Below, piece by piece: positions 18,853-19,033 of a stretch of 33,743 nucleotides of DNA. The position numbers were made by a program, and so were the translations under genes. Origin of the DNA: an uncultured Planctomycetia bacterium. Its GTDB lineage: Bacteria > Omnitrophota > Gorgyraeia > Taenaricolales > CAZCCH01. The notes under the pieces were generated by a model. That model was not told where the DNA came from and ran no database searches. It saw only the letters and a list, made by a program, of their open reading frames with translations. Each line of letters starts with the position of its first letter. Positions within the stretch are counted from its first letter, which is position 1. The stretch lies in assembly GCA_964497315.1 (NCBI GenBank), contig CAZCCH010000015.1, positions 1 to 33,743 of the forward strand, in the 5' to 3' direction.

Positions 18853-18896
18853 TATATATTGATATAGTAAAATAAAAGCTAATTTTGGTAATATAG

Positions 18897-18986
18897 CCGT
18901 CCTCGACAAAGGTAAACTCGACCAAAAAGAGGTGGGGTTCGCAAAGCTGCGGGTCTAATTTTAAATAGATAGCCGGGCTGTCGAAG
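18897..18986 (+). ncRNA. Candidate c-di-GMP-I (GEMM-like) riboswitch aptamer in the 5' leader of the giant gene
   Basis: Leader ...UCGACAAAGGUAAACU...AAAAAGAGGUGGGGUUCGCAAAGCUGCGGGUCUAA resembles the Vibrio Vc2 GEMM core (ACAGGGCAAACC...GAAAGAGUGGGACGCAAAGCCUCCGGCCUAA). A possible P1 5' strand UCGACA (18903-18908) is complementary to UGUCGA in the terminator 5' arm. Needs covariance-model confirmation. Confidence 0.4.
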
Positions 18987-19011
18987 GAAACTATTTCGGC
19001 AGTCTTTTTTT
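18978..19011 (+). terminator. Intrinsic terminator/attenuator 22 nt upstream of the giant-gene ATG
   Basis: 8-bp stem CUGUCGAA / UUCGGCAG (one G.U), 9-nt loop, then UC + U7 (19005-19011). Confidence 0.6.
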
Positions 19012-19033
19012 ATCTAAAAAATAGACTATTATT

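What the first reader, a model, noticed from the sequence alone, without database searches (positions are those of the whole stretch)
18859..19033. Structured leader upstream of the giant gene: GEMM-like (c-di-GMP-I) sequence plus terminator with mutually exclusive anti-terminator pairing
The roughly 175-nt leader contains GGUAAACU...GAGGUGGGGUUCGCAAAGCUGCGGGUCUAA. This closely echoes the conserved GEMM core (GGGCAAACC...GGGACGCAAAGCC.CCGGCCUAA, including the A-rich J2/3 that intercalates c-di-GMP). A clean intrinsic terminator (8-bp stem + U7) ends only 22 nt before the ATG. The 6-mer UCGACA at the aptamer 5' end is exactly complementary to UGUCGA in the terminator's 5' arm, giving a plausible P1/terminator switch. 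That geometry would make it an ON switch with ligand. GEMM riboswitches commonly control large surface proteins. The gene itself has no recognisable SD, so control may be purely transcriptional.
Basis: partly seen in the sequence, partly recalled or inferred. Interest (0 to 1): 0.8.

Follow-up and report, generated by a model that had tools for sequence, protein, structure and literature searches.

The report
Cyclic-di-GMP riboswitch before giant gene
The leader of a 10-kb gene in an uncultured Omnitrophota bacterium carries a genuine GEMM-I (c-di-GMP-type) riboswitch wired as a transcriptional ON switch; it is an ordinary member of a known family, except that one of the three ligand-contacting bases (C92) is U and the usual GNRA loop is missing.

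Summary
The curated Rfam model c-di-GMP-I (RF01051) matches window 18901-18985 (+) end to end at 43.5 bits (gathering score 35, E 1.8e-5). It is the only Rfam hit in the window. An intrinsic terminator (18975-19005, then seven U) shares its 5' arm with the aptamer's P3 and P1 3' strands.

Folding shows that the nascent RNA adopts the GEMM-I fold by itself. In the full leader the terminator fold (-38.1 kcal/mol) and the aptamer fold (-36.1) are nearly equal. Ligand binding should therefore prevent termination and turn on the 3359-aa secreted protein gene.

Two details are atypical:
- The base equivalent to Vc2 C92, which pairs with one guanine of c-di-GMP, is U (18981).
- The first hairpin has no GNRA loop, and the second hairpin is short.

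U92 is rare: about 1 of 70 aptamers when the position was left free. It is nevertheless recurrent. Eighteen examples from unrelated phyla pass the Rfam thresholds, mostly upstream of secreted or surface proteins.

No orthologous leader exists, so this copy has no covariation test of its own, and the ligand is inferred. c-di-GMP is most likely, and 3',3'-cGAMP is not excluded. I class it as a new member of a known kind, of moderate-to-low interest.

The parts
18832..18860 (+). Promoter-like site TTGCCA-17-TATATT. An overlapping TGgTATACT extended -10 lies at 18844-18852. The predicted transcription start is near 18867, which gives a 5' UTR of roughly 165 nt.
   Evidence: 10 of 12 consensus matches. 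Consensus match only; the transcription start is inferred.
18901..18985 (+). GEMM-I (c-di-GMP-I family) aptamer, complete.
   Evidence: RF01051 43.5 bits (GA 35), E 1.8e-5, model 1-87/87; sister model RF03167 41.8 bits (below its GA of 59) with the same register and P1 annotated.
18900..18907 (+). P1 5' strand. 18903-18905 (U12 C13 G14 in Vc2 numbering) pair with 18982-18984. 18900-18902 pair with 18986-18988 across a bulged A18985. 18906-18907 (A15, C16) can pair with U18981 and G18980 in the free RNA.
   Evidence: Unconstrained MFE of the nascent transcript; RF03167 structure line; register fixed by the G14-C93 stacking reported in PMC11705072.
18911..18911 (+). [quoted passage not shown] An A here would indicate the cGAMP class (GEMM-Ib).
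   Evidence: Alignments; role from PMC6140456 and PMC5888326.
18912..18942 (+). First hairpin (P2, also called P1b). Base pairs are G18912-C18942 and U18913-G18941 (U22 wobble). The helix is CUC-G-AC / GU-G-GGG with one G.G mismatch. The A-rich loop (CAAAAAGAG) is not GNRA, and the hairpin is 22 nt where the family has 17.
   Evidence: comparison with 72 + 46 other aptamers.
18940..18940 (+). C, equivalent to Vc2 C44, the partner of G83 (18972) in the long-range tertiary pair.
   Evidence: Alignment; the G83-C44 interaction is described in PMC11705072. Both nucleotides are present; the pairing itself is inferred.
18943..18945 (+). AAA of the invariant GCAAAG. 18943 is equivalent to A47, which intercalates between the two ligand bases.
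   Evidence: role from PMC9049102.
18945..18979 (+). Second hairpin (P3, also called P2): AGCU/GGCU, bulged G, CGG/CCG, AG bulge (G83 = 18972), GUC/GAU, and a 12-nt AU-rich loop. The upper stem and tetraloop receptor of the consensus are absent.
   Evidence: alignment (4-bp upper stem deleted); all 10 pairs checked as standard.
18981..18981 (+). U at the position of Vc2 C92, which forms the Watson-Crick pair with G-beta of c-di-GMP. This is the one pocket nucleotide that departs from the canonical class.
   Evidence: consensus UgCCgaa / UGCcgaag against window UGUCGAAG, posterior probability '*'; register. It is fixed in all 7 contigs.
18975..19011 (+). Intrinsic terminator. The 5' arm is 18975-18986 (last 5 nt of P3, J3/1, and the P1 3' strand), the loop is 18987-18993, the 3' arm is 18994-19005, and the U7 tract is 19005-19011.
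   Evidence: pairs listed; hairpin -13.5 kcal/mol; MFE of the full leader.
18896..18899 (+). GCCG, which in the aptamer (ON) conformation pairs with CGGC 18997-19000 in the 3' arm of the terminator. This is a possible auxiliary anti-terminator clamp.
   Evidence: aptamer-enforced fold. Predicted only.
19034..29113 (+). Regulated gene, a 3359-aa protein. It has a Sec signal peptide, an N-acetylhexosamine-kinase/APH-like domain (about aa 383-761), two internal Tat-like signals, three HExxH motifs and ten [SA]RF.E motifs. It has no Shine-Dalgarno sequence.
   Evidence: PF01636 E 2.2e-10; PF10518; PDB 4ocu E 4.5e-9.

Best explanation
This is a GEMM-I riboswitch acting as a transcriptional ON switch for the giant secreted-protein gene of an Omnitrophota bacterium. 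Transcription starts near 18867. The first ~120 nt fold into the three-helix GEMM-I aptamer (P1 18900-18907/18980-18988, hairpin 18912-18942, hairpin 18945-18979). If the cyclic dinucleotide is bound when the polymerase reaches 18994-19011, the P1 and P3 3' strands stay locked in the aptamer. The terminator cannot form and the polymerase reads into the gene. Without ligand, the 3' arm (18994-19005) displaces P1 and the base of P3, forms the 10-12-bp hairpin in front of U7, and transcription stops 22 nt before the ATG. The ligand is most likely c-di-GMP, recognised by G20 (18911), the intercalating A47 (18943) and a G.U wobble to U92 (18981) in place of the canonical G-C pair. I expect weaker binding and a higher switching threshold than a C92 aptamer has. 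Shown here: family membership, the terminator, the overlap of the two structures, and their near-equal energies. Inferred: ligand identity, affinity, promoter use and actual regulation.
For: Family: RF01051 scores 43.5 bits against GA 35 with full-length alignment, and it is the only Rfam hit in 33.7 kb. G20, GCAAAG (A47), C44/G83, the AG bulge and 19 of 20 alignable pairs are preserved. Switch: the unconstrained MFE of transcripts ending at 18986 or 18993 is the GEMM-I fold. With the 3' arm added, the terminator fold is the MFE at -38.1 kcal/mol, against -36.1 for the enforced aptamer fold, a gap that ligand binding can readily overcome. The same design (terminator 5' arm made of the aptamer 3' strand) occurs in about 10 of 85 other unique GEMM-I leaders, for example L090, L080, L065 and the U92 variant L053. 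Ligand: G at position 20 argues against the A20 cGAMP class. In Vc2, C92U keeps a reduced c-di-GMP response that is partly rescued by more c-di-GMP (bioRxiv 10.1101/617340). Eighteen natural G20/A47/U92 aptamers pass the Rfam thresholds and mostly sit upstream of secreted or surface proteins, a chemoreceptor and a sensor kinase. One is divergent from a c-di-GMP-II riboswitch (L027). U92 is kept across 4 Rubrobacter-group, 2 Alicyclobacillus and 2 Desulfosporosinus species. Another Omnitrophota genome has a canonical GEMM-I (L018, 58.3 bits). The leader is identical in 7 contigs from 6 samples.
Against: No orthologous leader could be found, so this copy has no covariation evidence. Its score is the lowest of all aptamers examined (43.5 against 47-80 bits). 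One of the three ligand-contacting bases is non-canonical. The GNRA loop present in every other true hit and the upper P3/receptor are missing, so tertiary docking may be impaired. A15-U92 and C16-G91 can pair in the free RNA, which could compete with the ligand or stabilise P1 without it. No c-di-GMP synthesis or degradation genes lie in the window. Equilibrium folding says nothing about co-transcriptional kinetics.
Confidence: 0.7

Rival explanations
1. The fold and ON-switch mechanism are the same, but the natural ligand is a mixed or different dinucleotide. The candidates are 3',3'-cGAMP (G-alpha read by G20, A-beta forming a Watson-Crick pair with U92) or a linear product such as pGpA/pApG. 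On this reading the G20/A47/U92 aptamers are a separate specificity class.
For: Position 92 is the base that pairs with one ligand base, and the window has U there. In Vc2, base changes at positions 20 and 92 re-target the pocket: G20A admits cGAMP and G20A/C92U binds c-di-AMP. U92 is rare (1 genuine case among about 70 aptamers with the position left free) yet is kept among related species, and it co-occurs with canonical C92 copies in the same locus (L023, L034). That is the pattern expected if the two variants are not redundant.
Against: The gene contexts of the U92 variants match the ordinary c-di-GMP regulon, and one lies beside a c-di-GMP-II riboswitch. A G.U wobble still allows c-di-GMP binding, since the Vc2 C92U mutant retains a response. 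No cGAMP synthase is known or seen here. All known natural cGAMP riboswitches use A20, not U92. Co-occurrence with C92 copies is equally well explained by affinity tuning.
Confidence: 0.15
2. This is a decayed or ligand-independent GEMM-I relic. The aptamer no longer binds anything, and the hairpin plus U7 acts as a constitutive attenuator or leaky terminator in front of a recently acquired gene.
For: It has the lowest bit score of the set, no GNRA loop, a truncated P3 and a G.G mismatch in P2. U92 together with A15/C16 lets P1 close over the pocket. The giant gene looks like an insertion: GC is 41-44% against ~37% in the flanks, and it is absent from the syntenic DUF134-Dus locus of the nearest relative. 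No covariation data exist for this copy.
Against: Every other core nucleotide is intact, and the score is still 8.5 bits above the curated threshold. The terminator overlaps the aptamer in exactly the register used by other GEMM-I ON switches, and the two folds are within 2 kcal/mol; drift would not be expected to maintain that balance. The leader is invariant across 7 contigs. A constitutive strong terminator before a 10-kb gene with an intact reading frame would be maladaptive.
Confidence: 0.12
3. The resemblance to GEMM-I is a chance match in an AT-rich intergenic region, next to an ordinary terminator or hairpin.
For: It is a single copy with no orthologues. The intergenic region is AT-rich, and A-rich motifs such as GCAAAG and GGUAAAC are not very improbable there.
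Against: E is 1.8e-5 for the whole window against all families, and 9.3e-9 for the sister model on the 301-nt leader. The match is full length, with pairing preserved in three helices. Its orientation and position (5' UTR, immediately upstream of an overlapping terminator and a gene) are as expected. The nascent-RNA MFE reproduces the family fold without any constraint.
Confidence: 0.03

Closest known systems
c-di-GMP-I (GEMM-I) riboswitch, Rfam RF01051; structural archetype Vibrio cholerae Vc2
   Same: Three-helix junction; G20, GCAAAG with the intercalating A47, the C44-G83 pair nucleotides and the AG bulge; location in a 5' UTR; score above the curated threshold.
   Different: U instead of C at position 92. 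There is no GNRA tetraloop and no tetraloop receptor or long P3. It has a U22.G45 wobble and UUC instead of GAC before GCAAAG. It is an ON switch using a terminator, whereas Vc2 is described as an OFF switch acting on RNA stability.
Vc2 C92U laboratory mutant (PDB 3MUR, 3UD3/3UD4; Smith et al. 2010 and 2012, as cited)
   Same: Identical pocket composition: G20 / A47 / U92.
   Different: The mutant has C at position 15, so it cannot form the A15-U92 pair that the window and nearly all natural aptamers can form. The mutant is engineered, whereas the window sequence is a natural allele fixed in its population. The primary papers with the Kd values are not in the held library.
GEMM-Ib 3',3'-cGAMP riboswitches of Geobacter (e.g. 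Gs1761)
   Same: Same fold; ligand specificity is altered by a single pocket substitution. To my knowledge (not checked here) they are typically ON switches with an overlapping terminator.
   Different: They change position 20 (G to A) and keep C92. The window keeps G20 and changes position 92.
Rfam variant families c-di-GMP-I-GGC (RF03167) and c-di-GMP-I-UAU (RF03168?), from Weinberg et al. 2017
   Same: Same clan (CL00126). The RF03167 model has the same short P3 as the window and aligns it well (41.8 bits).
   Different: If the family names give positions 20/47/92 (my reading; the source paper is not held), the window is G-A-U, which is neither GGC nor UAU. It is below the RF03167 gathering score (59). 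The accession of the UAU family is from memory.
pbuE/ydhL adenine riboswitch (ON switch by terminator disruption)
   Same: Same regulatory logic: the ligand-stabilised P1 sequesters the 5' arm of an intrinsic terminator.
   Different: Unrelated aptamer fold and ligand.

Membership tests
GEMM-I structural family (Rfam RF01051, clan CL00126) | Scores at or above the curated gathering threshold of the covariance model over the full model length | tested here: met
   43.5 bits against 35; model 1-87/87; E 1.8e-5.
GEMM-I structural family (Rfam RF01051, clan CL00126) | Two adjacent hairpins closed by a P1 helix (three-helix junction), with an AAA-containing J1/2 and GCAAAG in J2/3 | tested here: met
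   The unconstrained MFE of the nascent RNA gives the same three helices.
GEMM-I structural family (Rfam RF01051, clan CL00126) | GNRA tetraloop on the first hairpin docking into a receptor or the minor groove of the second hairpin | tested here: not met
   The loop is CAAAAAGAG/AAAAAGA in a 22-nt hairpin. All true hits have 17-18 nt with GNRA. The upper P3 stem is deleted. This feature is typical of the family but is not required by the Rfam model.
GEMM-I structural family (Rfam RF01051, clan CL00126) | Nucleotides of the C44-G83 long-range pair present | tested here: met
   C18940 and G18972 (alignment; interaction described). The pairing itself cannot be tested here.
GEMM-I structural family (Rfam RF01051, clan CL00126) | Covariation supporting the helices in orthologous leaders of this locus | tested here: inconclusive
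   Seven contigs have identical leaders. No orthologous leader was found.
Canonical c-di-GMP-specific class (pocket G20 / A47 / C92) | G at position 20 | tested here: met
   G18911.
Canonical c-di-GMP-specific class (pocket G20 / A47 / C92) | A at position 47 | tested here: met
   A18943.
Canonical c-di-GMP-specific class (pocket G20 / A47 / C92) | C at position 92 (Watson-Crick partner of G-beta) | tested here: not met
   U18981 (register). I therefore file the element under the GEMM-I fold family but not under the canonical pocket class.
Canonical c-di-GMP-specific class (pocket G20 / A47 / C92) | Selective, high-affinity binding of c-di-GMP | not testable with these tools
   Needs ITC or in-line probing.
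GEMM-Ib (3',3'-cGAMP) class | A at position 20 | tested here: not met
   G18911; class definition.
c-di-GMP-II riboswitch (RF01786) | Match to the covariance model | tested here: not met
   No hit at the gathering threshold, nor at E <= 10 on the leader.
Terminator-based ON riboswitch (expression platform) | Intrinsic terminator whose 5' arm is mutually exclusive with the ligand-stabilised aptamer helices | tested here: met
   18975-18986 is shared between the P3/P1 3' strands and the terminator 5' arm. Energies are -36.1 and -38.1 kcal/mol.
Terminator-based ON riboswitch (expression platform) | Ligand-dependent read-through | not testable with these tools
   Needs in vitro transcription or reporter assays.

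The most novel reading that the evidence does not exclude
Natural GEMM-I aptamers with the pocket G20/A47/U92 (the window's element plus at least 18 others in Rubrobacter, Rokubacteria, Nitrospirota, Alicyclobacillus, Desulfosporosinus, Shewanella and others) may form a functionally distinct class that has not been curated. They could be 3',3'-cGAMP or pGpA sensors that read the adenine through a U92 Watson-Crick pair, a solution different from the A20 route used in Geobacter. Alternatively they could be high-threshold c-di-GMP sensors whose pocket is closed by an A15-U92 pair in the free state. In the window this would be combined with a GNRA-less aptamer that might dock through an A5/U4 loop-loop contact (18924-18928 with 18959-18962).
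Probability: 0.15. Interest if true: 0.6.

Novelty: new member of a known kind. Interest (0 to 1): 0.35.

Why it matters
The finding links cyclic-dinucleotide signalling to expression of a giant secreted protein in Omnitrophota, a phylum of mostly uncultured bacteria. It gives a concrete, testable regulatory handle on one of these large, unexplained genes. It also draws attention to a natural set of GEMM-I aptamers with U at position 92. That pocket change has been studied in the laboratory in Vc2, but its role in nature (affinity tuning or altered specificity) appears to be uncharacterised. The element itself is an ordinary riboswitch of a well-known family.

Tried and rejected
- Orthologous leaders for covariation: exact-protein look-ups gave 7 contigs with identical leaders.
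- Word-indexed search with giant-protein aa 1-600 found nothing. It did not recover the query itself either, so this negative is weak. The full-length query timed out.
- tblastn-confirmed scan of 185,579 species genomes with aa 1-1300: no relative.
- Exhaustive HMMER of aa 1-1200 against 1.84 billion representatives: only the kinase module (aa ~383-761) has relatives, many of them inside other giant proteins. Six of those loci were fetched and none has a GEMM-I element.
- Synteny through Dus: the nearest relative keeps DUF134-Dus but lacks the giant gene, a second relative has no synteny, and neither locus has a GEMM-I element.
- Literature on natural variation at position 92 (Weinberg 2017, Nelson 2015, Kellenberger 2015, Smith 2010): not in the held library. 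I measured the frequency myself with pattern scans. The viral scan gave too few matches to help.
- Covariation between positions 15 and 92: uninformative, because position 15 is A in nearly all C92 and U92 aptamers.
- c-di-GMP-II and all other Rfam families on the leader: only sub-threshold noise such as Srn266 and PISRT1.
- c-di-GMP enzymes or receptors encoded in the window: none.
- Alternative register in which C18982 is the G-beta partner and U18981 is an insertion: rejected as less parsimonious. UGUCGAA has the same length as the consensus UGCCGAA in all 18 natural variants, and it would break the conserved G14-C93 pair. It cannot be excluded without a structure.

Full report
**Observation.** UCGACA (18903-18908) is the reverse complement of UGUCGA (18979-18984). 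A stem-loop at 18975-19005 is followed by seven T (19005-19011), and the T-run ends 22 nt before the ATG. The stem has 10-12 pairs when G-U is counted, not 8. The ATG has no Shine-Dalgarno sequence, although several other genes of the window have one. A sigma-70-like promoter, TTGCCA-17-TATATT, lies at 18832-18860.

**Is it a GEMM element?** Yes.
- A scan of the whole window against all 4227 Rfam families gives one hit above a gathering score. It is RF01051 (c-di-GMP-I) at 18901-18985 on the + strand, 43.5 bits against a threshold of 35, E 1.8e-5, covering model positions 1-87 of 87.
- The sister model RF03167 aligns the same bases in the same register (41.8 bits, below its own threshold of 59). 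It adds an explicit P1 annotation.
- c-di-GMP-II and everything else on the leader is noise.
- The leader is identical in seven contigs from six metagenome samples, so it is a real, fixed sequence.

**Anatomy.** I fixed the numbering against V. cholerae Vc2 using the RF03167 structure line and an NMR observation: the ligand guanine paired to C92 stacks on G14, so G14-C93 is the top pair of P1 (PMC11705072).

| Vc2 position | Window coordinate | Base | Comment |
|---|---|---|---|
| G20 | 18911 | G | canonical |
| A47 | 18943 | A | within an intact GCAAAG |
| C44 / G83 | 18940 / 18972 | C / G | tertiary-pair nucleotides present |
| P1 | 18903-18905 with 18982-18984 | | extended by 18900-18902 with 18986-18988 |
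| C92 | 18981 | U | non-canonical |

- All ten pairs of the second hairpin, both pairs at the base of the first hairpin, and five of the six pairs in the body of the first hairpin are standard.
- The first departure is U at position 92.
- The second departure is in the hairpins. The first hairpin is 22 nt with an A-rich loop, where every other true aptamer I collected has 17-18 nt with a GNRA loop. The upper stem of the second hairpin is missing.
- This copy is also the lowest-scoring aptamer of all those examined (43.5 against 47-80 bits).

**Mechanism.**
- The 5' arm of the terminator (18975-18986) consists of the last five bases of P3, the two junction bases and the 3' strand of P1. The aptamer and the terminator therefore cannot coexist.
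- Transcripts ending at 18986 or 18993 fold into the GEMM-I secondary structure without any constraint.
- Once the 3' arm is present, the terminator fold becomes the minimum at -38.1 kcal/mol. The enforced aptamer fold is -36.1 kcal/mol.
- In the aptamer state, GCCG 18896-18899 can also clamp CGGC 18997-19000 of the terminator 3' arm.
- This is the geometry of an ON switch: ligand holds P1 and P3, the terminator fails to form, and the gene is transcribed.
- The design is not peculiar to this locus. About 10 of 85 unique GEMM-I leaders collected here build their terminator in the same way.
- These steps come from sequence and thermodynamics. Actual ligand-dependent read-through is inferred.

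**The U92 question.**
- In the family, G20 reads one guanine through its Hoogsteen edge, C92 pairs with the other, and A47 stacks between them (PMC5888326; PMC6140456).
- G20A defines the natural cGAMP class, and the G20A/C92U double mutant binds c-di-AMP.
- C92U in Vc2 lowers the in vivo c-di-GMP response about 30-fold. Extra c-di-GMP partly restores it (bioRxiv 10.1101/617340).
- The papers that tabulate natural variation are not held, so I measured it.
- Free-position sample: a metagenome scan with a GEMM-I skeleton that leaves position 92 free gave 69 C and 3 T. Only one of the T cases looks like a genuine aptamer.
- U-required scan: a scan of 185,579 species genomes that requires G20 and U92 gave 46 stretches. 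The 18 I submitted to Rfam all pass a gathering threshold.
- These 18 come from Rubrobacter-group bacteria, Rokubacteria, Nitrospirota, Solirubrobacterales, Alicyclobacillus, Desulfosporosinus, Desulfuromonadales, Shewanella and others.
- U92 is retained among related species while loop sequences differ.
- It co-occurs with a canonical C92 copy in two loci (L023, L034). One copy lies next to a c-di-GMP-II riboswitch (L027).
- The downstream genes are secreted or surface proteins, a chemoreceptor and a sensor kinase, which is the usual c-di-GMP regulon.
- Position 15 is A in nearly all aptamers of both kinds. U92 therefore creates a potential A15-U92 pair. In the window C16-G91 can also pair, and together these close the pocket in the free RNA.
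- I conclude that U92 is a rare but real natural state. It most likely tunes a c-di-GMP sensor to a higher threshold. A shift towards 3',3'-cGAMP or pGpA cannot be excluded by computation.

**Context.**
- Dus from the window has its best named relatives (up to 66% identity) in Candidatus Omnitrophota. The other genes in the window are ordinary chromosomal genes of a diderm anaerobe, with no c-di-GMP enzymes.
- Another Omnitrophota genome carries a canonical GEMM-I (L018, 58.3 bits).
- The regulated protein has a Sec signal peptide and an N-acetylhexosamine-kinase/APH-like domain. It also has two internal Tat-like signals, three HExxH motifs and ten copies of [SA]RF.E.
- Only the kinase module has relatives. 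They lie at varying positions inside other giant proteins, and six such loci lack any GEMM-I element.
- The giant gene is richer in GC than its flanks. It is absent from the syntenic DUF134-Dus locus of the nearest relative, so gene and leader look like a lineage-specific acquisition.
- As a result, no orthologous leader exists and no covariation test of this particular copy is possible.

**Verdict.** The element is a new member of the GEMM-I family wired as a terminator-based ON switch. Its pocket is non-canonical (G20/A47/U92) and it has no GNRA loop. Family membership is secure at about 0.9, ON-switch function is probable, and c-di-GMP as the ligand is likely but unproven. Interest is moderate to low. 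The most novel reading that the evidence leaves open is that natural U92 aptamers form a distinct affinity or specificity class.

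Noticed in passing
window 19034-29113 (+): The 3359-aa ORF reads like a string of modules rather than a repeat adhesin. After an N-terminal Sec signal it has two internal twin-arginine-like signals (aa 1309 SRRDFMKAGAF, aa 2855 SRRTFLKAAAAGAG; Pfam TAT_signal E 3.5e-5), three HExxH zincin-like motifs (aa 1677, 2514, 2993) and ten copies of [SA]RF.E. 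This may indicate a processed polyprotein. Internal Tat signals downstream of a Sec signal are odd.
   Followed up: partly
window 20180-21320 (aa ~383-761 of the giant protein); P0001-P0031: The NahK/APH-like kinase module recurs at 37-46% identity at very different positions inside many other giant proteins (2,300-5,900 aa), several with similar Sec signals, and also as stand-alone ~400-aa proteins in Armatimonadota and Saganbacteria. One relative (P0007) is a chain of sugar-kinase domains. This suggests a class of mosaic giant secreted proteins.
   Followed up: partly
window 19034-29113 compared with its flanks; L132 7978-11002: The giant gene has 41-44% GC against 36-38% around it. It is missing from the syntenic DUF134-Dus locus of the nearest relative, which points to a lineage-specific insertion together with its riboswitch.
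   Followed up: partly
L023 4046-4140(-) and 6604-6691(+); L034 1317-1397(-) and 755-835(-); L027 687-773(-) and 1368-1448(+): Natural U92 GEMM-I aptamers sit next to a canonical C92 GEMM-I in Alicyclobacillus and in a Nitrospiraceae MAG (same strand, about 480 nt apart). In a Rubrobacter MAG one is divergent from a c-di-GMP-II riboswitch. This could reflect graded thresholds or different ligands.
   Followed up: partly
window 18924-18928 and 18959-18962: The A5 run in the loop of the first hairpin is complementary to the U4 run in the loop of the second hairpin. A loop-loop contact might replace the missing GNRA/receptor docking, but it could equally be chance in AU-rich loops. It cannot be tested without homologues.
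   Followed up: no
window 18364-18762 (+): The 132-aa protein just upstream of the leader has hydrophobic segments and a C-terminal RanBP2-type zinc ribbon (PF00641, E 3e-4, below the Pfam cut-off). No function is assigned.
   Followed up: no
window 1-30000: Almost all genes lie on the + strand and GC skew is steadily positive (cumulative skew rises monotonically to about 30 kb, then flattens). This is consistent with a long leading-strand stretch.
   Followed up: no
window 19034 and 19094: Gene callers on shorter contigs of the same population started the giant gene 60 nt downstream, at the ATGATG at 19094. The upstream ATG gives a proper Sec signal peptide (MKLSNSNIHKIISIALLVTFMMSLIGPELALA) and is the more likely start.
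   Followed up: yes
(tool behaviour): The word-indexed protein search with aa 1-600 of the giant protein returned nothing, not even the protein itself, although the exact protein is on record. Negative results from that search should be treated as weak for this query.
   Followed up: yes
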